Source of the DNA: Nemertoderma westbladi
Taxonomy: Eukaryota; Animalia; Xenacoelomorpha
NCBI GenBank assembly: GCA_032718475.1
Contig: JAUCBJ010003389.1
Span: forward strand, 1 to 32,514
Direction: 5' to 3'
Length of the DNA: 32,514 nt
The notes beneath the pieces were generated by a model. The model ran no database searches and was not told the DNA's origin. It saw only the letters and a program-made list of their open reading frames with translations. Every line of letters begins with the position of its first letter. Position 1 is the first letter of the stretch. Shown here one piece after another: positions 7,701 through 32,481 of the stretch. A program made the translations under genes and the position numbers.

Positions 7701-10289
7701 GGCGCGGGCCTACGTAATGAGTTACTAATGAGGCGCGGGCCTACGTAATGAGTTACCAGTGGGGCGCGGGTCTACGTAATGAGTTACCAATGGGGCGCGG
7801 GCCTACGTAATGAGTTACCAATGAGGCGCGGGCCTACGTAATGAGTTACCAATAAGGCGTGGGCCTACGTAATGAGTTACCAATAAGGCGCGGGCCTACG
7901 TAATGAGTTACCAATGAGGCGCGGGCCTACGTAATGAGTTACCAATGGGGCGCGGGCCTACGTAATGAATTACCAATGAGGCGCGGGCCTACGTAATGAG
8001 TTACCAATGATGCGCGGGCCTACGTAATGAGTTACCAATGAGGCGCGGGCCTACGTAATGAGTTACCAATGAGGCGCGGGCCTACGTAATGAGTTACCAA
8101 TGAGGCGCGGGCCTACGTAATGAGTTACCAATGAGGCGCGGGCCTACGTAATGAGTTACCAATGAGGCGCGGGCCTACGTAATGAGTTACCAGTGGGACT
8201 CGGACCTACGTAATGAGTTACCAATGAGGCGCGGGCCTACGTAATGAGTTACCAATGAGGCGCGGGCCTACGTAATGAGTTACCAATGAGGCGCGGGCCT
8301 ACGTAATGAGTTACCAATGAGGCGCGGGCCTACGTAATGAGTTACCAATGAGGCGCGGGCCTACGTAATGAGTTACCAATGAGGCGCGGGCCTACGTAAT
8401 GAGTTACCAATGAGGCGCGGGCCTACGTAATGAGTTACCAATGAGGCGCGGACCTACGTAATGAGTTACCAATGAGGCGCGGGCCTACGTAATGAGTTAC
8501 CAATGAGGCGCGGGCCTACGTAATGAGTTACCAGTGGGGCGCGGGCTACGTAATGAGTTACCAATAAGGCGCGGGCCTACGTAATGAGTTACCAGTGGGG
8601 CGCGGGCATACGTAATGAGTTACCAATGATGCGCGGGCCTACGTAATGAGTTACCAATGAGGCGCGGGCCTACGTAATGAGTTACCAATGATGCGCGGGC
8701 CTACGTAATGAGTTACCAATGATGCGCGGGCCTACGTAATGAGTTACCAGTGGGGCGCGGGTCTACGTAATGAGTTACCAATAAGGCGCGGGCCTACGTA
8801 ATGAGTTACCAATGGAGCGCGGGCCTACGTAATGAGTTACCAATGATGCGCGGGCCTACGTAATGAGTTACCAATGATGCGCGGGCCTACGTAATGAGTT
8901 ACCAGTGGGGCGCGGGCCTACGTAATGAGTTACCAATGATGCGCGGGCCTACGTAATGAGTTACCAATGATGCGCGGGCCTACGTAATGAGTTACCAATG
9001 AGGCGCGGGCCTACGTAATGAGTTACCAATGAGGCGCGGGCCTACGTAATGAGTTACCAATGATGCGCGGGCCTACGTAATGAGTTACCAATGATGCGCG
9101 GGCCTACGTAATGAGTTACCAGTGGGGCGCGGGCCTACGTAATGAGTTACCAATGATGCGCGGGCCTACGTAATGAGTTACCAATGATGCGCGGGCCTAC
9201 GTAATGAGTTACCAATGAGGCGCGGGCCTACGTAATGAGTTACCAATGAGGCGCGGGCCTACGTAATGAGTTACCAATGAGGCGCGGACCTACGTAATGA
9301 GTTACCAATGAGGCGCGGGCCTACGTAATGAGTTACCAATGAGGCGCGGGCCTACGTAATGAGTTACCAGTGGGGCGCGGGCTACGTAATGAGTTACCAA
9401 TAAGGCGCGGGCCTACGTAATGAGTTACCAGTGGGGCGCGGGCATACGTAATGAGTTACCAATGATGCGCGGGCCTACGTAATGAGTTACCAATGAGGCG
9501 CGGGCCTACGTAATGAGTTACCAATGATGCGCGGGCCTACGTAATGAGTTACCAATGATGCGCGGGCCTACGTAATGAGTTACCAGTGGGGCGCGGGTCT
9601 ACGTAATGAGTTACCAATAAGGCGCGGGCCTACGTAATGAGTTACCAATGGAGCGCGGGCCTACGTAATGAGTTACCAATGATGCGCGGGCCTACGTAAT
9701 GAGTTACCAATGATGCGCGGGCCTACGTAATGAGTTACCAGTGGGGCGCGGGCCTACGTAATGAGTTACCAATGATGCGCGGGCCTACGTAATGAGTTAC
9801 CAATGATGCGCGGGCCTACGTAATGAGTTACCAATGAGGCGCGGGCCTACGTAATGAGTTACCAATGAGGCGCGGGCCTACGTAATGAGTTACCAGTGGG
9901 GCGCGGGCCTACGTAATGAGTTACCAGTGGGGCGCGGGCCTACGTAATGAGTTACCAGTGGGGCGCGGGCCTACGTAATGAGTTACCAATGATGCGCGGG
10001 CCTACGTAATGAGTTACCAATGATGCGCGGGCCTACGTAATGAGTTACCAGTGGGGCGCGGGCCTACGTAATGAGTTACCAATGATGCGCGGGCCTACGT
10101 AATGAGTTACCAATGATGCGCGGGCCTACGTAATGAGTTACCAATGAGGCGCGGGCCTACGTAATGAGTTACCAATGAGGCGCGGGCCTACGTAATGAGT
10201 TACCAGTGGGGCGCGGGCCTACGTAATGAGTTACCAGTGGGGCGCGGGCCTACGTAATGAGTTACCAGTGGGGCGCGGGCCTACGTAAT
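4710..10289. repeat. Minisatellite array 2, 31-bp unit, 180 copies
   Basis: Consensus ATGAGTTACCAATGAGGCGCGGGCCTACGTA. Variation is concentrated in the ~7 nt after TTACCA (ATGAGG, GTGGGG, ATGGAG, ATAAGG, ATGATG, GTGGGA). Both ends are sharp. Confidence 0.98.
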
Positions 10290-10508
10290 CTTAAATATCA
10301 ACGAAATATTAAACTAATAAAGACCTATATTTTTGACTGACTATTAATTTGTTGTCACAAATTCCACAATGGAATCCTAAGTAAATGAAATGCCCATCTC
10401 CATCAATACCAGTAAATCACGAAGGGGAGCGAAGAGCGGCAGTGCGACTGGAGCAATATTGGTAATTTATGTAGAAGACTTGGGAGCGAATATAAAAAAA
10501 ATAACATA

Positions 10509-11751
10509 ATTAGCAAGTCGTAAGTAAGACTTGATTACTAGAGGGGTCTACTATTGAATTCTATTGAATAGGCCGAAACTGCAGAGAAGTATACTAGAGA
10601 CGGGCCTAGAGGCCCGTGAAGCAAGTCGTAGGAGACAGTACGAGTCAAGTAAAAGCTTTTTGTTCTGTCTGATAATCAATTAGTGTGAGGGTAGTCCCGG
10701 TGGTCTACGAGAAATTTTCTAGACAACTTCAAACTGTAATTATTATGTTGTAATCATCTAATGAATTATAAAAGCTGTTGTGATTATAGAAGATAGAGAG
10801 CAGTTAGCGAAATGATTATTTTGTTCTATCGGATAGAGTAGTCAGAGAGGAGTCGAGGTGTCAATTGATTAATAATAATAACATCAGTTGTCATGAATTC
10901 AATACAATCGCGCACAAGAAGTGAGAAGACAAATTTGTTCTTATTTTTGTAATAAATAAAACAAGTTGAGATGTTTCAATGTAAACCGCGATTATCAATA
11001 ATTTACACTGTTCAATGTAAACCACGATATTAATTAAATACAACAATTATATTATTATTATAGCAGATTTTTATATTTCAAACTCTCCGCTACAACTGTA
11101 TTACAATTCATTAGATAATTACAACATAATAATTATGGTTTGAAGCTTTTTTGTATAAATTGCTCCTACACCGGGCTACGATCAGACTAATTTATCGGAC
11201 AGAACAAAAAGCTTAACTTAACTCGTTATGTCTTATCCTTTGAATGGTGGAACAGTTTGTAATTGGACAAGTTCTTCTCAAACTCTTATCAACTAACCAA
11301 TTAAGTGTGCGAAGGCCCGCCATGAAAATGTAATTTGTAAAATTTGAATATGCTATTGAATGACTACATATGTATCAAGTAGGGTTTAATTTCATCAACG
11401 ATTGACCGAGTTAATAGGGATCAAAACTTTGACGACGACTGCTACAGACAACCCGATATTGGAACCACTATGCTAAGACCTTGTTCACTTCGTGGCTCGC
11501 CCTACAATAAGTATTAGCATTCATAGACCATTGGCTTCGCCAAGATAATAAAAATTTATCCATGGTCCGATGCGTAGCAGTCATTCTCTAAAATATTATT
11601 TGAGGCGCTGAATATTTCTGCCAATTACTAACCACATGTGTGCTACATAATAAAAATATTTGTTTACCAATTGAGGGAAAGGAGTACTTTATTGTAGAAT
11701 TTTATGTGACTTTACGACTTGTTTAATGGCGTCTTGACGCCGTCTCTAGTA
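10509..11751. mobile_element. Cluster of non-autonomous Helentron/DINE-1 (HINE)-like fragments
   Basis: Two related ends in opposite orientation, each TACTAGAGACGG + hairpin + CAAGTCGTA (10592 on +, 11751 on -). An internal IR at about 10653-10683 / 11188-11217 (AAGCTTTTTGTTCTGTC). A GACGACGAC..ACAGACA microsatellite-like tract at 11431-11450. A short hairpin TTGGC-TTC-GCCAA at 11531-11543. The family is inferred from architecture only. Confidence 0.45.
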
Positions 11752-12562
11752 AATAGGGAGGTGAAACTATCTCTGTTACAAATTTCTTGCAATCTCATTG
11801 GACACAGATAATCAGAAAGACACACTGCCGCGTACTGTAGGTATACCATTATTCCCGTACCGTATCATTGCGGGCAAATCAGATGGTTTTTTGCATTTTT
11901 CTTAAAAACGATACTTTTAGGAAAGTGATGTTATGGCGCTATGGTCTCGAATATCAACTCAACATGTCTAATAAAATAGAAAATTAATCGTCTTTTATTT
12001 GACTATAATTTATTATTAGGTTTGCCAACAAAGAAACAACAGGAACTTATAGATTCCTCTATTCCCGTTGTCATTCCATCTCTAAAGAGTCCACCCTTCA
12101 GTAGTGGGGCGAATAAACCCCATAGCAAACCTATGGATAATGGATCTTCATTGCCCGGTTAGTATAGCTAACTGCCCTACTATTACTGATACTCTAGACA
12201 TAGACATACCACCTTTATTGTAAGTGTTGATTATTTCCACGCCTTGACCTAAAATTATCACACAATTCGACAAGACTTAAATGTTCATAAATATTGGTAA
12301 ACGTCCAAGAAAGGTTGGAGGTACATCAAAATTAATCTCTCCTCACGGGAAAATCGCGCATAACTAATTACCAAAATTGTAAACTGCTCTATAATAGACT
12401 CGCGTTTATTGTTTTGGTTATAATAACGTATCACTATAGACTTATACACACTGTATGTAGACAATACATACAGTACATACAATACATACAGACTGTAAGT
12501 ACACTGTGTGTATGTAGACGATGTGCACGTGGTGTATACGTTGTCGTCTTACTTATTACCAG

Positions 12563-12868
12563 GTGTATCAAATCTGCGCCCTACTCCGGCCTCTACTGCT
12601 GATACCACGTATTACCCTCGTCACGCGGTTCCCAGGGTAACAGCCACCAAAATCCGCCCCCCACCGGTCCAACCAGAACCCGCCATCATCAACCAACCAA
12701 TAGGAGGTGATGCTCTGTTTGTAAGGAGACATAAATTCCCTGAGTTGACCAATGAGAGCAGCGCTAGCAGGGAGTACCTTGCTGCCGCTGATACCTTGAA
12801 ACAACTCGGCAGTATGGCAAGAAACCTGGCCACTCCGGATTTCTGTATGGATAACACCATACCTAGAG
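12563..12868 (+). CDS. Candidate internal coding exon (306 nt, phase 1-1) of an unidentified gene: VSNLRPTPAS...NQPIGGDALFVRRHKFPEL...LATPDFCMDNTIPR
   Basis: A GC-richer open frame within AT-rich DNA. It is preceded by a pyrimidine-rich acceptor TTGTCGTCTTACTTATTACCAG (AG at 12561-12562) and ends at donor AG|GTTTGT (GT at 12869). Its length is a multiple of 3. The protein family is not recognised and no upstream exons were identified. Confidence 0.65.
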
Positions 12869-15800
12869 GTTTGTTTATGTATGGATAACAGATAACACCA
12901 TACCTCGAGGTTTGTTTATGTATGGATAACAGAACACCATACCTAGAGGTTTGTTTATGTATGGATAACACCATATCTCGAGGTTTGTTTATGTATGGAT
13001 AACACCATACCTAGAGGTTTGTTTGGATAACACCATACCTAGAGGTTTGTTTGGATAACACCATATCTCGAGGTTTGTTTCTGTATGGATAACACCATAC
13101 CTCGAGGTTTGTTTATGTATGGATAACACCATATCTCGAGGTTTGTTTATGTATGGATAACACCATACCTCGAGGTTTGTTTATGTATGGATAACACCAT
13201 ATCTCGAGGTTTGTTTATGTATGGATAACACCATATCTCGAGGTTTGTTTATGTATGGATAACACCATACCTAGAGGTTTGTTTGGATAACACCATATCT
13301 CGAGGTTTGTTTATGTATGGATAACACCATATCTCGAGGTTTGTTTATGTATGGATAACACCATATCTCGAGGTTTGTTTATGTATGGATAACACCATAT
13401 CTCGAGGTTTGTTTATGTATGGATAACACCATACCTAGAGGTTTGTTTGGATAACACCATACCTCGAGGTTTGTTTATGTATGGATAACGCCGTATCTCG
13501 AGGTTTGTTTATGTATGGATAACACCATATCTCGAGGTTTGTTTATGTATGGATAACACCATATCTCGAGGTTTGTTTATGTATGGATAACACCATACCT
13601 AGAGGTTTGTTTGGATAACACCATACCTCGAGGTTTGTTTATATGTATGGATAACACCATATCTCGAGGTTTGTTTATGTATGGATAACACCATACCTAG
13701 AGGTTTGTTTGGATAACACCATACCTCGAGGTTTGTTTATATGTATGGATAACACCATATCTCGAGGTTTGTTTATGTATGGATAACACCATATCTCGAG
13801 GTTTGTTTATGTTTGGATAACACCATACCTAGAGGTTTGTTTATATGTATGGATAACACCATATCTCGAGGTTTGTTTATGTATGGATAACACCATACCT
13901 AGAGGTTTGTTTGGATAACACTATATCTCGAGGTTTGTTTATGTATGGATAACACCATACCTCGAGGTTTGTTTATGTATGGATAACACCATACCTAGAG
14001 GTTTGTTTGGATAACACCATATCTCGAGGTTTGTTTATGTATGGATAACACCATATCTCGAGGTTTGTTTATGTATGGATAACACCATATCTCGAGGTTT
14101 GTTTATGTATGGATAACACCATATCTCGAGGTTTGTTTATGTATGGATAACACCATACCTAGAGGTTTGTTTGGATAACACCATACCTCGAGGTTTGTTT
14201 ATGTATGGATAACACCATATCTCGAGGTTTGTTTATGTATGGATAACACCATACCTAGAGGTTTGTTTGGATAACACCATACCTCGAGGTTTGTTTATGT
14301 ATGGATAACACCACATCTCGAGGTTTGTTTATGTATGGATAACACCATACCTAGAGGTTTGTTTGGATAACACCATACCTCGAGGTTTGTTTATGTATGG
14401 ATAACACCATATCTCGAGGTTTGTTTATGTATGGATAACACCATATCTCGAGGTTTGTTTATATGTATGGATAACACCATATCTCGAGGTTTGTTTATAT
14501 GTATGGATAACACCATACCTCGAGGTTTGTTTATGTATGGATAACACCGTATCTTGGGGTTTGTTTATGTATGGATAACACCATACCTCGACGTTTGTTT
14601 ATGTATGGATAACACCATACCTAGAGGTTTGTTTGGATAACACCATACCTCGAGGTTTGTTTATGTATGGATAACACCATATCTCGAGGTTTGTTTATGT
14701 ATGGATAACACCATATCTCGAGGTTTGTTTATATGTATGGATAACACCATATCTCGAGGTTTGTTTATATGTATGGATAACACCATACCTCGAGGTTTGT
14801 TTATGTATGGATAACACCGTATCTCGGGGTTTGTTTATGTATGGATAACACCATACCTCGACGTTTGTTTATGTATGGATAACACCATACCTAGAGGTTT
14901 GTTTGGATAACACCATACCTCGAGGTTTGTTTATGTATGGATAACACCATATCTCGAGGTTTGTTTCTGTATGGATAACACCATACCTCGAGGTTTGTTT
15001 GGATAACACCATACCTCGAGGTTTGTTTATGTGTATGGATAACACCATATCTCGAGGTTTGTTTATGTATGGATAACACCATACCTCGAGGTTTGTATAT
15101 GTTTGGATAACACCATACCTAGAGGTTTGTTTATGTATGGATAACACCATATCTCGAGGTTTGTTTATGTTTGGATAACACCATATCTCGAGGTTTGTTT
15201 ATGTTTGGATAACACCATATCTCGAGGTTTGTTTGTATGGATAACACCATATCTCGAGGTTTGTTTCTGTATGGATAACACCATATCTCGAGGTTTGTTT
15301 ATGTATGGATAACACCATACCTCGAGGTTTGTTTATATGTATGGATAACACCATATCTCGAGGTTTGTTTATGTATGGATAACACCATACCTCGAGGTTT
15401 GTTTATATGTATGGATAACACCATATCTCGAGGTTTGTTTATGTATGGATAACACCATACCTCGAGGTTTGTTTGTATGGATAACACCGTATCTCGGGGT
15501 TTGTTTATGTATGGATAACACCTTATCTCGAGGTTTGTTTCTGTATGGATAACACCATATCTCGAGGTTTGTTTATGTATGGATAACACCATACCTCGAG
15601 GTTTGTTTATATGTATGGATAACACCATACCTCGAGGTTTGTTTATATGTATGGATAACACCATATCTCGAGGTTTGTTTATGTATGGATAACACCATAC
15701 CTCGAGGTTTGTTTATATGTATGGATAACACCATATCTCGAGGTTTGTTTCTGTATGGATAACACCATATCTCGAGGTTTGTTTCTGTATGGATAACACC

Positions 15801-18800
15801 ATACCTAGAGGTTTGTTTGGATAACACCATATCTCGAGGTTTGTTTCTGTATGGATAACACCATATCTCGAGGTTTGTTTCTGTATGGATAACACCATAT
15901 CTCGAGGTTTGTTTCTGTATGGATAACACCATATCTCGAGGTTTGTTTCTGTATGGATAACACCATATCTCGAGGTTTGTTTCTGTATGGATAACACCAT
16001 ATCTCGAGGTTTGTTTATGTATGGATAACACCATACCTAGAAGTTTGTTTGGATAACACCATATCTCGAGGTTTGTTTCTGTATGGATAACACCATATCT
16101 CGAGGTTTGTTTCTGTATGGATAACACCATACCTCGAGGTTTGTTTCTGTATGGATAACACCATATCTCGAGGTTTGTTTCTGTATGGATAACACCATAT
16201 CTCGAGGTTTGTTTATGTATGGATAACACCATACCTAGAGGTTTGTTTGGATAACACCATACCTCGAGGTTTGTTTATGTATGGATAACACCACATCTCG
16301 AGGTTTGTTTATGTATGGATAACACCATACCTAGAGGTTTGTTTGGATAACACCATACCTCGAGGTTTGTTTATGTATGGATAACACCATATCTCGAGGT
16401 TTGTTTATGTATGGATAACAGAACACCATACCTAGAGGTTTGTTTGGATAACACCATACCTCGAGGTTTGTTTATATGTATGGATAACACCATATCTCGA
16501 GGTTTGTTTATGTATGGATAACACCATATCTCGAGGTTTGTTTATGTATGGATAACACCATACCTCGAGGTTTGTTTGTATGGATAACACCGTATCTCGG
16601 GGTTTGTTTATGTATGGATAACACCATATCTCGAGGTTTGTTTCTGTATGGATAACACCATATCTCGAGGTTTGTTTATGTATGGATAACACCATACCTC
16701 GAGGTTTGTTTATATGTATGGATTACACCATACCTCGAGGTTTGTTTATATGTATGGATAACACCATATCTCGAGGTTTGTTTATGTATGGATAACACCA
16801 TACCTAGAGGTTTGTTTGGATAACACCATATCTCGAGGTTTGTTTCTGTATGGATAACACCATATCTCGAGGTTTGTTTCTGTATGGATAACACCATATC
16901 TCGAGGTTTGTTTCTGTATGGATAACACCATATCTCGAGGTTTGTTTATATGTATGGATAACACCATACCTCGAGGTTTGTTTATGTATGGATAACACCA
17001 TATCTCGAGGTTTGTTTCTGTATGGATAACACCATATCTCGAGGTTTGTTTCTGTATGGATAACACCATACCTCGAGGTTTGTTTGGATAACACCATATC
17101 TCGAGGTTTGTTTATGTATGGATAACACCATATCTCGAGGTTTGTTTATATGTATGGATAACACCATACCTCGAGGTTTGTTTATGTATGGATAACACCA
17201 TATCTCGAGGTTTGTTTATGTATGGATAACACCATACCTCGAGGTTTGTTTATGTATGGATAACACCATATCTCGAGGTTTGTTTATGTATGGATAACAC
17301 CATATCTCGAGGTTTGTTTATGTATGGATAACACCATACCTAGAGGTTTGTTTGGATAACACCATATCTCGAGGTTTGTTTATGTATGGATAACACCATA
17401 TCTCGAGGTTTGTTTATGTATGGATAACACCATATCTCGAGGTTTGTTTATGTATGGATAACACCATATCTCGAGGTTTGTTTATGTATGGATAACACCA
17501 TACCTAGAGGTTTGTTTGGATAACACCATACCTCGAGGTTTGTTTATGTATGGATAACACCATATCTCGAGGTTTGTTTATGTATGGATAACACCATACC
17601 TAGAGGTTTGTTTGGATAACACTATATCTCGAGGTTTGTTTATGTATGGATAACACCATACCTCGAGGTTTGTTTATGTATGGATAACACCATACCTAGA
17701 GGTTTCTTTGGATAACACCATATCTCGAGGTTTGTTTATGTATGGATAACACCATATCTCGAGGTTTGTTTATGTATGGATAACACCATATCTCGAGGTT
17801 TGTTTATGTATGGATAACACCATATCTCGAGGTTTGTTTATGTATGGATAACACCATACCTAGAGGTTTGTTTGGATAACACCATACCTCGAGGTTTGTT
17901 TATGTATGGATAACACCATATCTCGAGGTTTGTTTATGTATGGATAACACCATACCTAGAGGTTTGTTTGGATAACACCATACCTCGAGGTTTGTTTATA
18001 TATGGATAACACCACATCTCGAGGTTTGTTTATGTATGGATAACACCATACCTAGAGGTTTGTTTGGATAACACCATACCTCGAGGTTTGTTTATGTATG
18101 GATAACACCATATCTCGAGGTTTGTTTATGTATGGATAACACCATATCTCGAGGTTTGTTTATATGTATGGATAACACCATATCTCGAGGTTTGTTTATA
18201 TGTATGGATAACACCATACCTCGAGGTTTGTTTATGTATGGATAACACCGTATCTTGGGGTTTGTTTATGTATGGATAACACCATACCTCGACGTTTGTT
18301 TATGTATGGATAACACCATACCTAGAGGTTTGTTTGGATAACACCATACCTCGAGGTTTGTTTATGTATGGATAACACCATATCTCGAGGTTTGTTTATG
18401 TATGGATAACACCATATCTCGAGGTTTGTTTATATGTATGGATAACACCATATCTCGAGGTTTGTTTATATGTATGGATAACACCATACCTCGAGGTTTG
18501 TTTATGTATGGATAACACCGTATCTCGGGGTTTGTTTATGTATGGATAACACCATACCTCGACGTTTGTTTATGTATGGATAACACCATACCTAGAGGTT
18601 TGTTTGGATAACACCATACCTCGAGGTTTGTTTATGTATGGATAACACCATATCTCGAGGTTTGTTTCTGTATGGATAACACCATACCTCGAGGTTTGTT
18701 TGGATAACACCATACCTCGAGGTTTGTTTATGTGTATGGATAACACCATATCTCGAGGTTTGTTTATGTATGGATAACACCATACCTCGAGGTTTGTATA

Positions 18801-21800
18801 TGTTTGGATAACACCATACCTAGAGGTTTGTTTATGTATGGATAACACCATATCTCGAGGTTTGTTTATGTTTGGATAACACCATATCTCGAGGTTTGTT
18901 TATGTTTGGATAACACCATATCTCGAGGTTTGTTTGTATGGATAACACCATATCTCGAGGTTTGTTTCTGTATGGATAACACCATATCTCGAGGTTTGTT
19001 TATGTATGGATAACACCATACCTCGAGGTTTGTTTATATGTATGGATAACACCATATCTCGAGGTTTGTTTATGTATGGATAACACCATACCTCGAGGTT
19101 TGTTTATATGTATGGATAACACCATATCTCGAGGTTTGTTTATGTATGGATAACACCATACCTCGAGGTTTGTTTGTATGGATAACACCGTATCTCGGGG
19201 TTTGTTTATGTATGGATAACACCTTATCTCGAGGTTTGTTTCTGTATGGATAACACCATATCTCGAGGTTTGTTTATGTATGGATAACACCATACCTCGA
19301 GGTTTGTTTATATGTATGGATAACACCATACCTCGAGGTTTGTTTATATGTATGGATAACACCATATCTCGAGGTTTGTTTATGTATGGATAACACCATA
19401 CCTCGAGGTTTGTTTATATGTATGGATAACACCATATCTCGAGGTTTGTTTCTGTATGGATAACACCATATCTCGAGGTTTGTTTCTGTATGGATAACAC
19501 CATACCTAGAGGTTTGTTTGGATAACACCATATCTCGAGGTTTGTTTCTGTATGGATAACACCATATCTCGAGGTTTGTTTCTGTATGGATAACACCATA
19601 TCTCGAGGTTTGTTTCTGTATGGATAACACCATATCTCGAGGTTTGTTTCTGTATGGATAACACCATATCTCGAGGTTTGTTTCTGTATGGATAACACCA
19701 TATCTCGAGGTTTGTTTATGTATGGATAACACCATACCTAGAAGTTTGTTTGGATAACACCATATCTCGAGGTTTGTTTCTGTATGGATAACACCATATC
19801 TCGAGGTTTGTTTCTGTATGGATAACACCATACCTCGAGGTTTGTTTCTGTATGGATAACACCATATCTCGAGGTTTGTTTCTGTATGGATAACACCATA
19901 TCTCGAGGTTTGTTTATGTATGGATAACACCATACCTAGAGGTTTGTTTGGATAACACCATACCTCGAGGTTTGTTTATGTATGGATAACACCACATCTC
20001 GAGGTTTGTTTATGTATGGATAACACCATACCTAGAGGTTTGTTTGGATAACACCATACCTCGTGGTTTGTTTATGTATGGATAACACCATATCTCGAGG
20101 TTTGTTTATGTATGGATAACAGAACACCATACCTAGAGGTTTGTTTGGATAACACCATACCTCGAGGTTTGTTTATATGTATGGATAACACCATATCTCG
20201 AGGTTTGTTTATGTATGGATAACACCATATCTCGAGGTTTGTTTATGTATGGATAACACCATACCTCGAGGTTTGTTTGTATGGATAACACCGTATCTCG
20301 GGGTTTGTTTATGTATGGATAACACCATATCTCGAGGTTTGTTTCTGTATGGATAACACCATATCTCGAGGTTTGTTTATGTATGGATAACACCATACCT
20401 CGAGGTTTGTTTATATGTATGGATTACACCATACCTCGAGGTTTGTTTATATGTATGGATAACACCATATCTCGAGGTTTGTTTATGTATGGATAACACC
20501 ATACCTAGAGGTTTGTTTGGATAACACCATATCTCGAGGTTTGTTTCTGTATGGATAACACCATATCTCGAGGTTTGTTTCTGTATGGATAACACCATAT
20601 CTCGAGGTTTGTTTCTGTATGGATAACACCATATCTCGAGGTTTGTTTATGTATGGATAACACCATACCTAGAGGTTTGTTTGGATAACACCATATCTCG
20701 AGGTTTGTTTCTGTATGGATAACACCATATCTCGAGGTTTGTTTCTGTATGGATAACACCATACCTCGAGGTTTGTTTGGATAACACCATATCTCGAGGT
20801 TTGTTTATGTATGGATAACACCATATCTCGAGGTTTGTTTATATGTATGGATAACACCATACCTCGAGGTTTGTTTATGTATGGATAACACCATATCTCG
20901 AGGTTTGTTTCTGTATGGATAACACCATATCTCGAGGTTTGTTTCTGTATGGATAACACCATATCTCGAGGTTTGTTTCTGTATGGATAACACCATACCT
21001 AGAGGTTTGTTTGGATAACACCATATCTCGAGGTTTGTTTCTGTATGGATAACACCATATCTCGAGGTTTGTTTCTGTATGGATAACACCATATCTCGAG
21101 GTTTGTTTCTGTATGGATAACACCATATCTCGAGGTTTGTTTATGTATTGATAACACCATACCTAGAGGTTTGTTTGGATAACACCATATCTCGAGGTTT
21201 GTTTCTGTATGGATAACACCATATCTCGAGGTTTGTTTCTGTATGGATAACACCATACCTCGAGGTTTGTTTCTGTATGGATAACACCATATCTCGAGGT
21301 TTGTTTCTGTATGGATAACACCATATCTCGAGGTTTGTTTATGTATGGATAACACCATACCTAGAGGTTTGTTTGGATAACACCATATCTCGAGGTTTGT
21401 TTCTGTATGGATAACACCATACCTCGAGGTTTGTTTCTGTATGGATAACACCATATCTCGAGGTTTGTTTCTGTATGGATAACACCATATCTCGAGGTTT
21501 GTTTCTGTATGGATAACACCATATCTCGAGGTTTGTTTCTGTATGGATAACACCATACCTCGAGGTTTGTTTCTGTATGGATAACACCATATCTCGAGGT
21601 TTGTTTCTGTATGGATAACACCATATCTCGAGGTTTGTTTCTGTATGGATAACACCATATCTCGAGGTTTGTTTATGTATGGATAACACCATACCTAGAA
21701 GTTTGTTTGGATAACACCATATCTCGAGGTTTGTTTCTGTATGGATAACACCATATCTCGAGGTTTGTTTCTGTATGGATAACACCATACCTCGAGGTTT

Positions 21801-24800
21801 GTTTATGTATGGATAACACCATACCTCGAGGTTTGTTGATTATGAATAACACCATACCTCGAGGTTTGTTTCTGTATGGATAACACCATACCTCGAGGTT
21901 TGTTTCTGTATGGATAACACCATATCTCGAGGTTTGTTTCTGTATGGATAACACCATATCTCGAGGTTTGTTTATGTATGGATAACACCATACCTAGAGG
22001 TTTGTTTGGATAACACCATACCTCGAGGTTTGTTTATATGTATGGATAACACCATATCTCGAGGTTTGTTTATGTATGGATAACACCATACCTCGAGGTT
22101 TGTTTGTATGGATAACACCGTATCTCGGGGTTTGTTTATGTATGGATAACACCATATCTCGAGGTTTGTTTCTGTATGGATAACACCATATCTCGAGGTT
22201 TGTTTATGTATGGATAACACCATACCTCGAGGTTTGTTTATATGTATGGATTACACCATACCTCGAGGTTTGTTTATATGTATGGATCTCGAGGTTTGTT
22301 TATGTATGGATAACACCATACCTAGAGGTTTGTTTGGATAACACCATATCTCGAGGTTTGTTTATATGTATGGATAACACCATATCTCGAGGTTTGTTTA
22401 TATGTATGGATAACACTATATCTCGAGGTTTGTTTATGTATGGATAACACCATACCTAGAGGTTTGTTTGGATAACACCATATCTCGAGGTTTGTTTATA
22501 TGTATGGATAACACCATATCTCGAGGTTTGTTTATATGTATGGATAACACTATATCTCGAGGTTTGTTTATGTATGGATAACACCATACCTAGAGGTTTG
22601 TTTGGATAACACCATATCTCGAGGTTTGTTTATATGTATGGATAACACCATATCTCGAGGTTTGTTTATATGTATGGATAACACTATATCTCGAGGTTTG
22701 TTTATGTATGGATAACACCATACCTCGAGGTTTGTTTGTATGGATAACACCGTATCTCGGGGTTTGTTTATGTATGGATAACACCGTATCTCGGGGTTTG
22801 TTTCTGTATGGATAACACCATATCTCGAGGTTTGTTTATGTATGGATAACACCATACCTAGAGGTTTGTTTGGATAACACCATACCTCGAGGTTTGTTTA
22901 TATGTATGGATAACACCATATCTCGAGGTTTGTTTATGTATGGATAACACCATACCTCGAGGTTTGTTTGTATGGATAACACCGTATCTCGGGGTTTGTT
23001 TATGTATGGATAACACCATATCTCGAGGTTTGTTTCTGTATGGATAACACCATATCTCGAGGTTTGTTTATGTATGGATAACACCATACCTCGAGGTTTG
23101 TTTATATGTATGGATTACACCATACCTCGAGGTTTGTTTATATGTATGGATCTCGAGGTTTGTTTATGTATGGATAACACCATACCTAGAGGTTTGTTTG
23201 GATAACACCATATCTCGAGGTTTGTTTATATGTATGGATAACACCATATCTCGAGGTTTGTTTATGTATGGATAACACCATACCTCGAGGTTTGTTTGTA
23301 TGGATAACACCGTATCTCGGGGTTTGTTTATGTATGGATAACACCATATCTCGAGGTTTGTTTCTGTATGGATAACACCATATCTCGAGGTTTGTTTATG
23401 TATGGATAACACCATACCTCGAGGTTTGTTTATATGTATGGATTACACCATACCTCGAGGTTTGTTTATATGTATGGATAACACCATATCTCGAGGTTTG
23501 TTTATGTTTGGATAACACCATATCTCGAGGTTTGTTTCTGTATGGATAACACCATACCTCGAGGTTTGTTTATGTATGGATAACACCATATCTCGAGGTT
23601 TGTTTCTGTATGGATAACACCATATCTCGAGGTTTGTTTATGTATGGATAACACCATACCTCGAGGTTTGTTTATATGTATGGATAACACCATATCTCGA
23701 GGTTTGTTTATGTATGGATTACACCATACCTCGAGGTTTGTTTATATGTATGGATAACACCATACCTAGAGGTTTGTTTGGATAACACCATACCTCGAGG
23801 TTTGTTTATGTATGGATAACACCATATCTCGAGGTTTGTTTATGTATGGATAACACCATATCTCGAGGTTTGTTTATGTATGGATAACACCATACCTCGA
23901 GGTTTGTTTATATGTATGGATTACACCATACCTCGAGGTTTGTTTATATGTATGGATAACACCATATCTCGAGGTTTGTTTATGTATGGATAACACCATA
24001 CCTCGAGGTTTGTTTATATGTATGGATTACACCATACCTCGAGGTTTGTTTATATGTATGGATAACACCATATCTCGAGGTTTGTTTATGTATGGATAAC
24101 ACCATACCTAGAGGTTTGTTTGGATAACACCATACCTCGAGGTTTGTTTATATGTATGGATAACACCATATCTCGAGGTTTGTTTCTGTATGGATAACAC
24201 CATATCTCGAGGTTTGTTTATGTATGGATAACACCATATCTCGAGGTTTGTTTATGTATGGATAACACCATACCTCGAGGTTTGTTTATGTATGGATAAC
24301 ACCATATCTCGAGGTTTGTTTATGTATGGATAACACCATACCTCGAGGTTTGTTTGTATGGATAACACCGTATCTCGGGGTTTGTTTATGTATGGATAAC
24401 ACCATATCTCGAGGTTTGTTTCTGTATGGATAACACCATATCTCGAGGTTTGTTTATGTATGGATAACACCATACCTCGAGGTTTGTTTATATGTATGGA
24501 TTACACCATACCTCGAGGTTTGTTTATATGTATGGATAACACCATATCTCGAGGTTTGTTTATGTTTGGATAACACCATATCTCGAGGTTTGTTTCTGTA
24601 TGGATAACACCATACCTCGAGGTTTGTTTATGTATGGATAACACCATATCTCGAGGTTTGTTTCTGTATGGATAACACCATATCTCGAGGTTTGTTTATG
24701 TATGGATAACACCATACCTCGAGGTTTGTTTATATGCATGGATTACACCATACCTCGAGGTTTGTTTATATGTATGGATAACACCATACCTAGAGGTTTG

Positions 24801-27800
24801 TTTGGATAACACCATACCTCGAGGTTTGTTTATGTATGGATAACACCATATCTCGAGGTTTGTTTATGTATGGATAACACCATACCTCGAGGTTTGTTTA
24901 TGTATGGATAACACCATATCTCGAGGTTTGTTTATGTATGGATAACACCATACCTCGAGGTTTGTTTGTATGGATAACACCGTATCTCGGGGTTTGTTTA
25001 TGTATGGATAACACCATATCTCGAGGTTTGTTTCTGTATGGATAACACCATATCTCGAGGTTTGTTTATGTATGGATAACACCATACCTCGAGGTTTGTT
25101 TATATGTATGGATTACACCATACCTCGAGGTTTGTTTATATGTATGGATAACACCATATCTCGAGGTTTGTTTATGTATGGATAACACCATACCTAGAGG
25201 TTTGTTTGGATAACACCATATCTCGAGGTTTGTTTCTGTATGGATAACACCATATCTCGAGGTTTGTTTATGTATGGATAACACCATACCTCGAGGTTTG
25301 TTTATGTTTGGATAACACCATATCTCGAGGTTTGTTTCTGTATGGATAACACCATATCTCGAGGTTTGTTTCTGTATGGATAACACCATATCTCGAGGTT
25401 TGTTTATGTATGGATAACACCATACCTAGAGGTTTGTTTGGATAACACCATATCTCGAGGTTTGTTTCTGTATGGATAACACCATATCTCGAGGTTTGTT
25501 TCTGTATGGATAACACCATATCTCGAGGTTTGTTTATATGTATGGATAACACCATACCTCGAGGTTTGTTTATGTATGGATAACACCATATCTCGAGGTT
25601 TGTTTCTGTATGGATAACACCATATCTCGAGGTTTGTTTCTGTATGGATAACACCATATCTCGAGGTTTGTTTCTGTATGGATAACACCATACCTAGAGG
25701 TTTGTTTGGATAACACCATATCTCGAGGTTTGTTTCTGTATGGATAACACCATATCTCGAGGTTTGTTTCTGTATGGATAACACCATATCTCGAGGTTTG
25801 TTTCTGTATGGATAACACCATATCTCGAGGTTTGTTTATGTATGGATAACACCATACCTAGAGGTATGTTTGGATAACACCATATCTCGAGGTTTGTTTC
25901 TGTATGGATAACACCATATCTCGAGGTTTGTTTCTGTATGGATAACACCATACCTCGAGGTTTGTTTCTGTATGGATAACACCATATCTCGAGGTTTGTT
26001 TCTGTATGGATAACACCATATCTCGAGGTTTGTTTATGTATGGATAACACCATACCTCGAGGTTTGTTTCTGTATGGATAACACCGTATCTCGGGGTTTG
26101 TTTCTGTATGGATAACACCATATCTCGAGGTTTGTTTCTGTATGGATAACACCATATCTCGAGGTTTGTTTATGTATGGATAACACCATACCTAGAGGTT
26201 TGTTTGGATAACACCATACCTCGAGGTTTGTTTATATGTATGGATAACACCATATCTCGAGGTTTGTTTATGTATGGATAACACCATACCTCGAGGTTTG
26301 TTTGTATGGATAACACCGTATCTCGGGGTTTGTTTATGTATGGATAACACCATATCTCGAGGTTTGTTTCTGTATGGATAACACCATATCTCGAGGTTTG
26401 TTTATGTATGGATAACACCATATCTCGAGGTTTGTTTATGTATGGATAACACCATATCTCGAGGTTTGTTTATGTTTGGATAACACCATACCTAGAGGTT
26501 TGTTTATATGTATGGATTACACCATACCTCGAGGTTTGTTTATATGTATGGATAACACCATACCTCGAGGTTTGTTTATATGTATGGATAACACCATATC
26601 TCGAGGTTTGTTTATGTATGGATAACACCATACCTCGAGGTTTGTTTATATGTATGGATAACACCATATCTCGAGGTTTGTTTCTGTATGGATAACACCA
26701 TATCTCGAGGTTTGTTTCTGTATGGATAACACCATACCTAGAGGTTTGTTTGAATAACACCATATCTCGAGGTTTGTTTCTGTATGGATAACACCATACC
26801 TCGAGGTTTGTTTGTATGGATAACACCGTATCTCGGGGTTTGTTTATGTATGGATAACACCATATCTCGAGGTTTGTTTCTGTATGGATAACACCATATC
26901 TCGAGGTTTGTTTATGTATGGATAACACCATATCTCGAGGTTTGTTTATGTATGGATAACACCATATCTCGAGGTTTGTTTATGTTTGGATAACACCATA
27001 CCTAGAGGTTTGTTTATATGTATGGATTACACCATACCTCGAGGTTTGTTTATATGTATGGATAACACCATACCTCGAGGTTTGTTTATATGTATGGATA
27101 ACACCATATCTCGAGGTTTGTTTATGTATGGATAACACCATACCTCGAGGTTTGTTTATGTTTGGATAACACCATACCTAGAGGTTTGTTTATATGTATG
27201 GATTACACCATACCTCGAGGTTTGTTTATATGTATGGATAACACCATATCTCGAGGTTTGTTTCTGTATGGATAACACCATATCTCGAGGTTTGTTTATG
27301 TATGGATAACACCATATCTCGAGGTTTGTTTATGTATGGATAACACCATATCTCGAGGTTTGTTTATGTTTGGATAACACCATACCTAGAGGTTTGTTTA
27401 TATGTATGGATTACACCATACCTCGAGGTTTGTTTATATGTATGGATAACACCATACCTCGAGGTTTGTTTATATGTATGGATAACACCATATCTCGAGG
27501 TTTGTTTATGTATGGATAACACCATACCTCGAGGTTTGTTTATATGTATGGATAACACCATATCTCGAGGTTTGTTTCTGTATGGATAACACCATATCTC
27601 GAGGTTTGTTTCTGTATGGATAACACCATACCTAGAGGTTTGTTTGAATAACACCATATCTCGAGGTTTGTTTCTGTATGGATAACACCATACCTAGAGG
27701 TTTGTTTGAATAACACCATATCTCGAGGTTTGTTTATATGTATGGATAACACCATACCTCGAGGTTTGTTTATATGTATGGATAACACCATACCTCGAGG

Positions 27801-28367
27801 TTTGTTTCTGTATGGATAACACCATATCTCGAGGTTTGTTTCTGTATGGATAACACCATATCTCGAGGTTTGTTTATGTATGGATAACACCATACCTAGA
27901 GGTTTGTTTGGATAACACCATACCTCGAGGTTTGTTTATATGTATGGATAACACCATATCTCGAGGTTTGTTTATGTATGGATAACACCATATCTCGAGG
28001 TTTGTTTCTGTATGGATAACACCATATCTCGAGGTTTGTTTATGTATGGATAACACCATACCTCGAGGTTTGTTTCTGTATGGATAACACCATATCTCGA
28101 GGTTTGTTTATGTATGGATAACACCATATCTCGAGGTTTGTTTATGTATGGATAACACCATATCTCGAGGTTTGTTTGTGTATGGATAACACCATATCTC
28201 GAGGTTTGTTTATGTATGGATAACACCATACCTAGAGGTTTGTTTCTGTATGGATAACACCATATCTCGAGGTTTGTTTATGTATGGATAACACCATATC
28301 TCGAGGTTTGTTTATGTATGGATAACACCATATCTCGAGGTTTGTTTATGTATGGATGGATAACACC
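12840..28367. repeat. Minisatellite array 3, modal 34-bp unit with 26, 32 and 36-bp variants, about 460 copies
   Basis: Consensus TATGGATAACACCATA(T/C)CT(C/A)GAGGTTTGTTT(A/C)TG. Length variants come from the TT(ATATG/ATG/G)TATGG segment. The array ends at TATGGATGGATAACACC (28367). Confidence 0.98.
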
Positions 28368-28461
28368 TACTGAAATCATTTAAATTCAGCTTGTGATCGA
28401 GTCAATCTAGCAAAAAAATGTAATTAGTTTTGGGTTTTTATGCTGATTGACTTGAATACAG
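12869..28461 (+). other. Candidate 15.6-kb spliceosomal intron made almost entirely of array 3
   Basis: Donor GTTTGT at 12869. About 95 bp of unique sequence follows the array, with a T-rich tract, branch-like CTGAT/TTGAC at 28443-28451 and acceptor TACAG ending at 28461. The flanking exons join in frame. Confidence 0.5.
13845..20650. repeat. Higher-order duplication in array 3: about 13845-16949 repeated at about 17546-20650 (offset 3701 bp)
   Basis: Rare variants recur at +3701 (ACACTATATC near 13918/17619, GTATCTTGGGG, CTCGACGTT, CCTAGAAGTT, AACAGAACACC). The ORF track shows identical ORFs offset by 3701. Confidence 0.9.
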
Positions 28462-28529
28462 GTGTTTGTGGAGATGTTAACTTGGTTAATAATATAAATG
28501 GCGATGTGCGTCCTTTTGTAACTATATAA
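28462..28529 (+). CDS. Candidate terminal coding exon (G)VCGDVNLVNNINGDVRPFVTI*
   Basis: It follows TACAG in phase 1, matching the upstream exon, and stays open for 22 codons to TAA at 28527-28529. A possible ATTAAA polyA signal lies near 28587. The exon is short, so chance cannot be excluded. Confidence 0.4.
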
Positions 28530-28787
28530 ATGAGAAAATATATTCTAGAATTCCCGCAATGGAATAGTATAGAATATAAGCCAAAAATTAAAAAATAATG
28601 TTATTTTAAAAAAATAGCTACCACAAAAAATTACTTGCTGACACTAAATTGAATGCAAGCGAACCAGATTTAAGATGAAAGATGTCAACTAATGATGTAT
28701 TTTAAGGGAACTAATTGGTTCATCAAAAATAATCACTCACTCATGCGACAGTTTACTGCCAGGTCTGCAATTGATAGAATTTAACTT

Positions 28788-28882
28788 GCAACAGGATTCA
28801 TAATATGGATAGCAACAGGAGACATAGTTTGGATAGCAACAGGAGACATAGTTTGGATAGCAGCGGGAGAGATAATTTAGAT
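28788..28882 (+). repeat. 24-bp tandem repeat overlapping the kinase start codon (DSNRRHSL units)
   Basis: Two exact copies of TGGATAGCAACAGGAGACATAGTT, one degenerate downstream copy, and one degenerate upstream partial copy (GCAACAGGATTCATAATA). Confidence 0.85.
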
Positions 28883-29944
28883 GCTAAGTACCGGTACCCG
28901 ATTTCCCCATTGACTGCTCTTGCATGTTGCCATAACAGATACAAGTATGTAGGGGAGTGTACGCCTCGGAGTACAACGGTAGGTTTTAAAGCTAAGCTAA
29001 CTATAAATAGTGTGAAACGGATTTGTTTACCATTCGAATTGAAACTCGTCAGTAAATTGGGTTTTGGAACTTACGGATATGTTAATAAGTACCGATATAC
29101 ACCACTTAACAAAGACCTAGTGATAAAGCGAATCTCTTGCAACGTCGATGATATGTCACTTAAGGAGATACTAACTGTGGTGGGACTTCACAATATAATG
29201 CGAAAGGCATTCCTCGTCGAAGACAATGAGTCTATTTCTCCTTACATAGTAACCTACTATGGCTCGTGGCCTTCCTATATCAGGAGCAGTGGTGAAATAT
29301 GGGTTTGCATGGAAACTATGTTGACTTCAATGGATAAGTTCGTAGTACAGGCCAACGAGCATAACCTGGTTATCGATGAATGCTTTATGGGGTGGGTTGC
29401 TTATTCGTTGCTCGAGGCTGTTCACTATCTCGATACTATTTCGCTATTCTATCGAGACGTTAAACCCTCCAATGTTCTCATCAATTTCTCTGGGTCTATC
29501 AAGTTGGGTGACTATGGTATTTCTACATTCATTACTAATAACGTTCTACCTAAACCTAAAGAAACAATGAGCTTTGAGTGCAAGTTCGACGGAGCGTGGG
29601 AGAGGGATATGGAGGGACTGGGGAATACTATGATAGAACTGACGCTTTCTAAGTTCCGCAGTTCGGCCTGGTGGCTCCAGTTGACCTCCCCTGCTTTGCC
29701 CCACATTGCGCACCAGTCGACCCCAGAGCTATTGCTTTTCATTGCTAAATGTATTGACAAGAGAAAGCAGTGTAGATATTCGGCTATGTCGTTGGATAAA
29801 TTCATCCTACAACACCAAAAACCCCCGATGAATATTTCCGAAATGGTGGCGGCAGTCCGATCACCACACGGTATATTCTACACCAACCTTGTTTGGGCGT
29901 CTATAATTTTTGTTTTTCTGTGTTTTTTTTTTGGCCTTCAATAG
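28805..29944 (+). CDS. Intronless divergent STE7-family MAP kinase kinase (MKK3/6-like), possible pseudokinase or retrogene, 379 aa
   Basis: Gly loop LGFGTYGYV, VIKRI (beta3 Lys), SPYIVTYYGS, GEIWVCMETMLTSMDKF (MKK6: GDVWICMELMDTSLDKF), YRDVKPSNVLIN (MKK3/6: HRDVKPSNVLIN), KLGDYGIS, LGNTMIELT. The ORF is uninterrupted. Confidence 0.9.
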   Translation: MDSNRRHSLDSNRRHSLDSSGRDNLDAKYRYPISPLTALACCHNRYKYVGECTPRSTTVGFKAKLTINSVKRICLPFELKLVSKLGFGTYGYVNKYRYTPLNKDLVIKRISCNVDDMSLKEILTVVGLHNIMRKAFLVEDNESISPYIVTYYGSWPSYIRSSGEIWVCMETMLTSMDKFVVQANEHNLVIDECFMGWVAYSLLEAVHYLDTISLFYRDVKPSNVLINFSGSIKLGDYGISTFITNNVLPKPKETMSFECKFDGAWERDMEGLGNTMIELTLSKFRSSAWWLQLTSPALPHIAHQSTPELLLFIAKCIDKRKQCRYSAMSLDKFILQHQKPPMNISEMVAAVRSPHGIFYTNLVWASIIFVFLCFFFGLQ

Positions 29945-30568
29945 ATCAATCCTAACACAGCTAGGGGGGGGGGGGGTGTCTGTTTGTGTATAGTGGCCCA
30001 TATGGGCAAGATTTTTCTGGTTCAATCTATTACAATTTTGTCTTGTTTGGAATTTTGAATTTTGTCCTGTTTGGAAATTTTTGCAATTTTTTTTAAATAT
30101 ACTAAAATTTTTTGGTTTGGACACAGGGTTTGGGGTTTGTAATTAGTATTTTAGAAATGTTAAAAAATCTCAAAAATTTTCTAGAACAAAAAATATTTGT
30201 TACTCAAACATAATTTTAATTCATATTAACAGCTAATATCAGCAGCTCCATGTTCGTTACCAAGTGGGGTGCAGAAAACAGGTTAGAGCCAAAAAATTAT
30301 TATACAATAATATTCAACGATAATATGTTGAAACTTGAATGAAACAAATTAATTATTTATTACATGAGAAAAAAAGTACTTTTTTCACTATTCTCTAGGC
30401 ATTTTATTTACCGAGCGCCAGCGGGGTTAATAAAGGGTCGAGAGAATATTGAAAAAAAATGTTTTACGTTTCTTTCCATGTAATAGGTAATTTTATTGTT
30501 AATGGGCACTTTTTTGTCGCTTCCCCCCTTCCAATAAACCTCCCCCTTAATTTGTTTCAAATTTTAAC

Positions 30569-31503
30569 CATATGCTACGAAATTTGGTATGATGATGGTT
30601 CGACAACTTTTTTACTACAGCTATTTCGATACAACAAGCCGTTAAATAGTTTTCAGATTCGGAATCATCTGAAAGGATGGTATGCTTGAGTATGTGGACG
30701 ACTTCTATTACCTGGGATCATGGATCCGGAAGTCAGGTGAGGACCTTCGAATACGTAAGGGAAAGGCATGGGCAGCCTTGAATAGGCTTTCCAGGATTTG
30801 GAAGTCACCGAGAATTAATCGGAAACTTAAGGTCCGATTATTTAGAGCAGTAGTAGTTCCAGTACTCCTCTATGGGAGTCCATGCTGGGTTCTAACTGCT
30901 GAGGACACCAAATCTCTGGATGGCACATTCATAAGAATGCTACGCCGGGTTCATTGTGTCAAGTACAATGCACACATCTCCAACCAGACACTATATAACA
31001 TTGGAGGTGTCTCATTGGTTCCCCCAAGCTTGACACTAGAACAAAATCGCCTCCGCTTTGCAGGACATTGCTTTCGCCGTGAGGACCAGCCAGTGCATAA
31101 TCTTGTATTTTGGCAGCCTCATGGAGTGAATAAGCATGGTGGACAGCCCATGACTTTCTTGAGACGCATCTTAAAAGGACACTGGCCTTGAAGATGCGGG
31201 TGATCTAGCAAATGTCATGGGTGATAGGGAGTTGTGGCGGAGCAATTTTGTCGATTATGGCGCTTAAAAATGCAGCTGCAATGCAGCATGCCGATCCTAG
31301 TAGTAGTGCAGATGAAGGCGGTTCTAATGATTTCTAGATTACATTCAAAATAATATTTAGCCGGCGGAGATATCCCAATATTTCCAAATAGACGATTTTT
31401 AACGGTTTGTTTTATCAAAATAGCTCACAAATTGAAAAAACCGGCCCTGCCAGCAGAAACAAAAGTTCTCGAACTATCATCATACCAAATTTCGTAGCAT
31501 ATG
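30569..31503. mobile_element. Non-autonomous element with 43-bp inverted repeats, interrupted by an RTE LINE
   Basis: CATATGCTACGAAATTTGGTATGATGATGGTTCGACAACTTTT (30569-30611) matches the reverse complement of 31461-31503 at 41 of 43 positions. The true termini and TSD were not identified. Confidence 0.6.
30672..31308 (+). mobile_element. 5'-truncated RTE-clade non-LTR retrotransposon (region C-terminal to the RT core, with one frameshift)
   Basis: LEYVDDFYYLGS...RKGKAWAALNRLSRIWKS...KVRLFRAVVVPVLLYGS..W...MLRR...RLRFAGHCFRR is typical of the RTE ORF C-terminus. After a frameshift near 31176 it continues DTGLEDAGDLANVMGDRELWRSNFVDYGA* (stop at 31265-31267). A short (TAG)3 tail lies at 31298-31306. 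Confidence 0.9.
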
Positions 31504-32481
31504 ATAGGTATTATAAAGAATTAGTTAACTGATTTCAGATTTGCTAAAATGGTCCTTGTATTGAGGGAGATGGTAGAAATTGAACTGTAGTATTTTACTA
31601 TATTGTTTCTTTCTGCGATTCCAATTATTGTACTCTTCAACTCCTGATGGTGCTTTACTCAATGTTAAATAATTTAGTGTTCTCGAATATTTATTACGTA
31701 ACTAGAGAACCGCTTAACTACATAAACCAATATTGGATATTGAGTTCAGTTTTGGAGTACACCATGTAGACACTAAAGTTGCAATAACTGTCAATGGGTT
31801 TTGCATAAATTACGTTTCAACATTTTCTACTTAAGATGCTATTTCAACAAATGTAATTTTAATTTAGGAGATTCCTCCCAAAATATTATTCTTAAATTGT
31901 AACTTTTTCGCTCGAATATACTCCCCAATCAGGTTAAAGATTTCTTTTTTCCCAGCGAAAAAAAGTAAAATATATTATTTTTGGCGGAACGACTTAAATT
32001 TTATTACATGTGTTGAAAGAGCATCGATCTAGAAAAGGTTTGTAAGTGATTTGAGCAAAATCCATTCACACACTCAAAAGTTATTCCAACTTCTTTGTAT
32101 TTACTGAAAATCATATTACCTACTAAAATCACAAATCATTTACCATGTACTATCATGCAGGATTCAGTGAAAAACGGCATTATAATATAATGAATAATTA
32201 TAAAAAAGATGCAATTAATAGTAAATGCAATAATAACATAAACAACATAAACTTTGTTATTTTTTTTTATTAACGCTATTAACCTGCAAGAGAGTTAAGT
32301 AAAAGCGGAATAGTGAAATCCGAAAGGTCGGAAAGGTATAGAACGTATAGAAGGTGATAATGATGGGAGGTGAAACCTAGTCAAAAATATCAACTGAGAA
32401 GCAGCACCATAAACTTACACCAATCGTTTCAGATAAATTGGGTCTGTATTCGACAGCGACTGTAGAGTCCAAAAGGTCTAT

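What the first reader, a model, noticed from the sequence alone, without database searches (positions are those of the whole stretch)
12840..28529. A 15.6-kb intron built from about 460 copies of its own exon end and 5' splice site
Seen: the first unit of array 3 is the end of the candidate exon (TTC TGT ATG GAT AAC ACC ATA CCT AGA G, encoding FCMDNTIPR) plus the donor GTTTGT. Nearly every later unit keeps GAG|GTTTGT with the same ~25 nt of exon-like context. An in-frame TAA lies at 12886-12888, so any donor other than the first gives a truncated product. Past the array, TACAG at 28461 opens a phase-matched exon (PRG-VCGDVNLV...*). Inference: correct expression requires choosing the first of hundreds of near-identical donors. 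This would be a natural test of co-transcriptional first-come or exon-definition splicing, or of U1 decoy and NMD-coupled regulation that could depend on array length.
Basis: partly seen in the sequence, partly recalled or inferred. Interest (0 to 1): 0.8.

Follow-up and report, generated by a model that had tools for sequence, protein, structure and literature searches.

The report
Giant splice-donor minisatellite, unconfirmed exon
A 34-base piece carrying a splice-donor-like motif is repeated 463 times over 15.5 kb, starting at the end of what is likely an exon of an unidentified gene, so this is likely a large, tolerated example of a repeat type already known from human and lancelet genes.

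Summary
The array is real: 463 units at 12840-28368, all keeping GT and 435 reading GAG|GTTTGT; the TAA and TACAG are where stated. The motif alone means little: 17-27% of random 34-mers give one as good, and the minus strand carries a better one. The upstream exon (12563-12868) has fair support from sequence alone: best acceptor of 144 in the spacer, a GC step from 35% to 54%, an open frame, codon periodicity, and a phase-matched upstream candidate. No homologue was found, and a stronger donor sits inside it at 12707. The proposed downstream exon is weak. Most likely this is a junction-spanning ('mirage') minisatellite spliced at the first donor, as shown for human F7. The proposed test has been run on human ABCA7 (25-bp units, up to 9.7 kb): one-unit leak is NMD-sensitive but length-independent. 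The scan has already noted this pattern in more than a dozen identified genes of this genome, which are better test cases. New member of a known kind; low interest.

The parts
12840..28368 (+). Minisatellite array 3: 463 units (305 of 34 nt, 76 of 36, 61 of 28), each 29 nt of exon-end-like sequence plus 5 nt from the GT on; a partial unit at the right end
12563..12868 (+). Candidate coding exon B, 306 nt, phase 1-1, proline-rich first half; no homologue found
   Evidence: acceptor rank 1 of 144 in the spacer; GC step, open frame and periodicity; searches blank
12869..12874 (+). First donor-like site, GAG|GTTTGT; 6 of 9 matches to the U1 consensus; rank 43 of 418 GTs in unique DNA
12707..12712 (+). 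Rival phase-1 donor inside exon B (GAG|GTGATG), rank 7 of 418 by matrix, 5 of 9 matches to the U1 consensus
12886..12888 (+). In-frame TAA in unit 2, 21 nt before the donor-2 junction (GT at 12910)
12020..12157 (+). Candidate upstream exon A, 138 nt, phase 1-1, donor CCG|GTTAGT (rank 9 of 418); coding signal weak; no homologue found
13876..16944 (+). 3,069-nt block of 92 units repeated at 17577-20645 with 3 mismatches (recent large duplication within the array)
   Evidence: score 80 against a best of 6 in 50 shuffles of unit order
25864..25869 (+). The one internal unit with a nearer-consensus donor, GAG|GTATGT (unit 390); predicted leak site
28462..28529 (+). Proposed downstream terminal exon: 21 codons then TAA, GC 32%; ATTAAA at 28587; weakly supported

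Best explanation
A 34-nt segment covering the last 29 nt of a likely coding exon and the first 5 nt of its likely intron has been amplified head-to-tail to 463 copies, and the gene is predicted to keep splicing at the first donor. SHOWN: the array, its donor motif in every unit, its start at the end of a GC-rich open frame behind a strong acceptor, and ongoing turnover (42 unit types, a 3-kb internal duplication). INFERRED: the segment is an exon. The array grew by slippage and unequal exchange with no selection on the extra donors. U1 is placed at donor 1 because only that site pairs across a normal-sized exon with the 12563 acceptor and is transcribed first (exon definition or oriented scanning, as in F7). 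A few percent of transcripts would leak to donor 2, or to the GTATGT variant at 25864, and end at the TAA in unit 2, as in ABCA7. The acceptor that closes the intron is unknown: 28462 is the nearest plausible phase-matched one (my estimate about 35-40% given the rest).
For: Acceptor 12563 ranks 1 of 144 AGs in the spacer under two matrices and 4 of 421 in all unique DNA. GC rises from 35% to 54% with the change point at 12574 (interval 12488-12580; 0 of 500 permutations as strong). One + frame is stop-free over 92 codons: chance 2.1% for a given frame, 6.3% for any + frame. Codon-position chi-square is 16.9, above all 28 control windows, and the open frame scores best of six under a model trained on this window's kinase and RT frames (4.6, next 3.0). 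The part after the rival donor stays open and at 51% GC, above all 2002 spacer windows. Of 5 visible array edges only this one has a long open exon between a good acceptor and a donor in unit 1. The array holds none of 11 poly(A) hexamers, which disfavours a 3' end inside it. First-donor use is documented for F7, LMNB2 and PDGF (PMC1557585) and for lancelet mirages (PMC3087553, PMC3902484).
Against: No homologue was found for exon B or exon A; the one hit, P0012, is a low-complexity repeat match. This counts little, since the neighbouring kinase also finds only 29-35% relatives. GTTTGT is a modest donor (rank 43 of 418), and a higher-scoring phase-1 donor lies at 12707. The open-frame chance is 12.5% if all six frames are allowed, and the region was chosen after the fact. 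Taken separately, neither half of the exon shows significant periodicity (p 0.18 and 0.11). Exon A's coding signal is weak. The downstream exon is weak. The splice matrices are recalled, human-like approximations, not trained on this organism.
Confidence: 0.55

Rival explanations
1. The exon is real but the array does not sit on its working donor. Either the exon ends at the stronger donor 12707 and the array starts 133 nt inside the intron, or it is the last coding exon, ending at TAA 12886-12888 with the array in or beyond the 3' UTR.
For: 12707 outranks 12869 (7 against 43 of 418) and is also phase 1; 12563-12706 is the top-scoring + exon in the window. The frame closes naturally 6 codons past the GT. 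The downstream exon is weak.
Against: 12707-12839 stays open and GC-rich (51% against 34.5%; binomial p 6e-5) with first-position purine bias. No poly(A) hexamer occurs in 15.5 kb of array, so a terminal exon would need a satellite-long UTR or a non-canonical signal.
Confidence: 0.22
2. There is no gene here: the satellite was amplified from arbitrary, slightly GC-rich non-coding DNA (or a decayed element), and the donor motif and phase match are coincidence.
For: Donor-like 9-mers arise in 17-27% of random units. The minus strand has better ones. 61 of 463 units lose 6 nt of the exon-like part. Array 2 grows out of an inverted-repeat-rich, transposon-like stretch, so arrays here can start from non-exonic DNA. 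No homologue was found.
Against: The best acceptor, the GC step, the open frame and the periodicity all coincide at this one edge. The protein databases lack close relatives even of the adjacent kinase.
Confidence: 0.15
3. One reading: the array is a functional device whose length tunes output, by titrating U1 or by diverting transcripts to NMD.
For: All 463 units keep GT. ABCA7 VNTR length does change skipping of the next exon, 3.2-fold between extremes (PMC5954066, section 21).
Against: GT invariance is at chance level, with 15 of 34 columns unsubstituted, and 26 units carry changes at -1 or -2. In ABCA7, use of the second donor and the response to NMD inhibition did not depend on length (PMC5954066). 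Here the stop is 21 nt from the donor-2 junction, and the predicted protein loss is a short tail. Donor 1 is not more accessible than the others (rank 290 of 463).
Confidence: 0.08

Closest known systems
Human F7 intron 7 37-bp VNTR, with IFI6 (6-16), CBS, LMNB2 and PDGF as cited there (PMC1557585; seen: abstract, introduction, discussion)
   Same: The first monomer spans the exon-intron boundary, identical donors follow, and only the most upstream is normally used (the next one or two leak in 6-16 and CBS).
   Different: 5-25 copies there against 463 here. The F7 unit is mostly intronic (4 exon + 33 intron nt); this one is mostly exon-like (29 + 5). Splicing was measured there and not here.
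Human ABCA7 intron 18 25-bp VNTR (PMC5954066; seen: passages and section 21. PMC13747324; seen: passages)
   Same: A multi-kilobase donor-bearing array (alleles to 9,711 bp, about 390 units by my arithmetic). Use of the second donor adds one unit and a premature stop that is subject to NMD.
   Different: The ABCA7 unit starts at the GT and carries no exon end. The gene, alleles and RNA are known there. Length changed skipping of the next exon, not use of the internal donor.
Lancelet 'mirage' minisatellites: Adh3, troponin C, globins BflGb6/BflGb9, PGBD5 (PMC3087553 and PMC3902484; seen: passages)
   Same: Tandem copies of an exon-intron boundary in an invertebrate, length-unstable, reported not to disturb normal splicing.
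   Different: A few copies in the globin and PGBD5 cases read (3-6), with units of 10-160 bp; here 463 copies fill 99% of the presumed intron, and the host gene is unidentified.

Membership tests
Junction-spanning ('mirage') minisatellite | Head-to-tail array of a short unit | tested here: met
   463 units of 26-41 nt
Junction-spanning ('mirage') minisatellite | First unit spans a real exon-intron boundary of a transcribed gene | tested here: inconclusive
   Acceptor, GC step, open frame and periodicity support an exon; no homologue; rival donor at 12707
Junction-spanning ('mirage') minisatellite | Later units keep the splice signal | tested here: met
   463 of 463 keep GT; 435 of 463 have the first unit's 9-mer
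Junction-spanning ('mirage') minisatellite | Mature RNA uses the original (first) donor | not testable with these tools
Junction-spanning ('mirage') minisatellite | Length instability and repeat turnover | tested here: inconclusive
   A 3,069-nt internal duplication with 3 mismatches and 42 unit types show turnover; no second allele was available
Intron gain by tandem duplication of an AG|GT proto-site (Rogers model, as cited in PMC3087553) | The last unit's AG serves as acceptor and restores the coding frame | tested here: not met
   The AG at the donor position is preceded by G in an A/C-rich context with no pyrimidine tract; the 64 units with an extra TAG put it 2 nt earlier, out of phase
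ABCA7-type length-dependent splicing VNTR | Isoform ratios change with array length | not testable with these tools
   Needs alleles of different length with matched RNA

The most novel reading that the evidence does not exclude
This animal lineage amplifies its own splice junctions into satellites genome-wide by a junction-biased process. Here an orphan gene splices correctly across 462 decoy donors, while exchange between units (8 exact copies of unit 1, 42 variants) can rewrite the exon's last ten codons and array length tunes the output.
Probability: 0.1. Interest if true: 0.6.

Novelty: new member of a known kind. Interest (0 to 1): 0.2.

Why it matters
If the exon is real, the locus adds one more case of a spliceosome picking the first of hundreds of near-identical donors, at a copy number slightly above the longest ABCA7 allele I read of. 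What could be new is the genome-wide density of such arrays in this animal, which would point to a mutational bias at splice junctions. I did not find that described in six searches or in passages of two xenacoelomorph genome papers. This locus is a poor vehicle for that question, because its gene is unidentified and both exons are unconfirmed. The identified genes noted elsewhere in the same genome serve better.

Tried and rejected
No whole genome is held. Sequencing runs: none was listed for 10400-12850; this is no evidence either way, and it left no run to lay. Homologue searches for exon B were blank: Pfam, PDB sequences, longer proteins (0 of 178 candidates), the Atlas and metagenome contigs (0 of 435 pattern matches confirmed). 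The 1.84-billion representative search gave one hit, P0012, which I rejected as a low-complexity repeat match. Exon A: 0 of 26 candidates. A second Atlas look gave no answer. RNA structure as the reason for first-donor choice was rejected: donor 1 ranks 290 and 315 of 463 in predicted accessibility. Array pieces fold better than base shuffles (z -3.8 to -5.1), but shuffles are not a fair control for a tandem palindromic unit. Selection to keep GT was rejected. A minus-strand gene entering array 3 from the right was rejected: the 40-nt candidate there has stops in all three frames by my reading, and the best open alternative scores -6. Joining exon B to the kinase is not supported: the kinase's upstream acceptor at 28795 is phase 2, and the phase-1 acceptors in its frame fall mid-domain. 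The kinase and exon A frames were mis-set, so I dropped its codon log-odds and those two positional tables and redid them. ARAGORN and Rfam found nothing at the tRNA-like piece. No structure prediction was run, and no paper supplements were read.

Full report
Setting. Three unrelated arrays make up about 77% of the window: 36-nt units at 1-3815, 31-nt units at 4710-10289 and 34-nt units at 12840-28357. To the right lies an intronless MKK3/6-like kinase frame whose best relatives are only 29-35% identical. The DNA is therefore from an animal poorly represented in the databases. No whole genome is held. Earlier notes call the organism a probable xenacoelomorph worm; I did not test that.

The observation. 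Array 3 has 463 full units in 42 types and a partial unit ending at 28368. All 463 keep GT, 435 read GAG|GTTTGT, and 373 match at least 25 of the candidate exon's last 29 bases. The GT at 12869, the in-frame TAA at 12886-12888, TACAG at 28457-28461 and the phase match are as stated. A 3,069-nt block occurs twice with 3 mismatches, which shows recent large-scale unequal exchange, or possibly an assembly duplication.

The motif alone is not evidence. With recalled, approximate splice matrices, GAG|GTTTGT ranks 43 of 418 GTs in the unique DNA. A random 34-mer made tandem has an equal donor in 17% of draws on one strand and 27% on either. Array 3's minus strand has higher-scoring donors in 193 units. 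GT invariance is at chance level, since 15 of 34 columns are unsubstituted, and 26 units have changes at -1 or -2.

Is 12563-12868 an exon? For: its acceptor is the best of 144 in the spacer under two matrices. GC steps from 35% to 54% at 12488-12580 (0 of 500 permutations). One + frame is open over 92 codons (chance 2% for a given frame, 6% for any + frame, 12.5% for any of six). Codon-position bias exceeds all 28 control windows. The open frame scores best of six. A phase 1-1 candidate exon lies upstream at 12020-12157. Only this one of five visible array edges shows such an exon. Against: no homologue in seven searches, the single hit being spurious, though the kinase control makes that blank weak. 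A higher-scoring phase-1 donor at 12707 would end the exon before the array. However, the 133 nt after it remain open and at 51% GC, above all 2002 spacer windows. A terminal exon ending at the TAA is possible but would face 15.5 kb with none of 11 poly(A) hexamers. My estimates are about 75-80% that the exon is real and about 55-60% that 12869 is its working donor.

The downstream exon is the weakest link. 28462 ranks 51 of 421 overall and 2nd or 4th of 21 local AGs. Its 21 open codons arise by chance 14% of the time and the following ATTAAA 46% of the time. Its GC is 32%. The real acceptor could lie beyond the window, with the kinase nested in the intron.

Mechanism. Most likely the junction segment was duplicated and then expanded neutrally, and the first donor is used because it alone is defined across a normal exon and is made first. 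This step is inferred. RNA structure does not single out donor 1 (rank 290 of 463). That replaces 22 residues by 6, and for donor 2 the stop is 21 nt from the junction, too close for junction-dependent NMD by the recalled 50-55 nt rule; donor 3 is at 60 nt. One internal unit at 25864 has GTATGT and is the predicted deep leak site.

What is known. Human F7 intron 7 repeats its donor 5-9 times and only the most upstream site is used, by oriented scanning; 6-16, CBS, LMNB2 and PDGF are cited as similar (PMC1557585). Lancelet 'mirages' duplicate boundaries without disturbing splicing (PMC3087553; PMC3902484). The ABCA7 VNTR repeats a donor in 25-bp units up to 9,711 bp. One-unit retention occurs at low level (the paper gives 14% and 2% for its two frameshifting isoforms; by their order the retention is the 2%). 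It rises with cycloheximide and does not depend on length, whereas skipping of the next exon does (PMC5954066). A later study could not correlate splicing with length in its cohort (PMC13747324, passage). I found no paper on genome-wide giant donor satellites in an invertebrate (passages of PMC9911081 and PMC10565955); supplements were not read.

Earlier notes. The scan lists the same pattern in PRPF8, TFCP2, GALNS, MEMO1, CstF-77, CLUAP1 and other genes of this genome, several with RNA said to use the first donor. These are unchecked AI notes. They raised my prior and gave me the F7 and mirage papers, which I then read; they are not evidence for this locus. No note overlaps this window or resembles its sequence.

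Verdict. A real and large array, probably a junction-spanning minisatellite, with an unconfirmed host exon and a weak downstream exon. New member of a known kind; interest 0.2.

Noticed in passing
window 1-3815: Array 1 (36-nt units, about 106 copies) carries AGG|GTAGGG x68 and AAG|GTAGGG x18 on +, phase 1 in a frame that is open over the first 72 codons. It may be a second donor satellite of the same gene, with its first unit left of the window.
   Followed up: partly
window 4710-10289: Array 2 (31-nt units, 180 copies). On the minus strand its unit starts right after an AG and equals a 24-nt micro-exon candidate (10266-10289) plus GTAACTC. Its other end merges into an inverted-repeat-rich, transposon-like stretch at 4324-4724. 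Origin ambiguous.
   Followed up: partly
window 28805-29944: Intronless, divergent MKK3/6-like kinase frame, 29-35% identical to its best hits, with YRD and DYG where HRD and DFG are usual (motif names recalled) and a shortened activation segment against MKK6.
   Followed up: partly
window 28788-28882: Four 24-nt repeats at the kinase start begin 7 nt before an acceptor-like AG (exon start 28795) and lie in frame: a small acceptor-type mirage candidate.
   Followed up: no
window 30552-31520: Inverted-repeat element (60-nt and 28-nt arms) enclosing a LINE reverse-transcriptase-like 3' fragment at 30673-31191 (family assignment recalled; Pfam DUF6451).
   Followed up: no
window 10653-11214: MITE-like element with nested inverted arms of 23, 28 and 45 nt in the spacer before exon A.
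   Followed up: no
window 3882-3955 (-): tRNA-like piece with A- and B-box-like motifs by eye, not called by ARAGORN or Rfam; probably a SINE head or pseudogene.
   Followed up: partly
window 28340-28368: Array 3 both starts and ends with the same 19-nt portion of the unit, and the last copy has a 4-nt duplication that removes the in-frame TAA. The origin of this long terminal overlap is unexplained.
   Followed up: no
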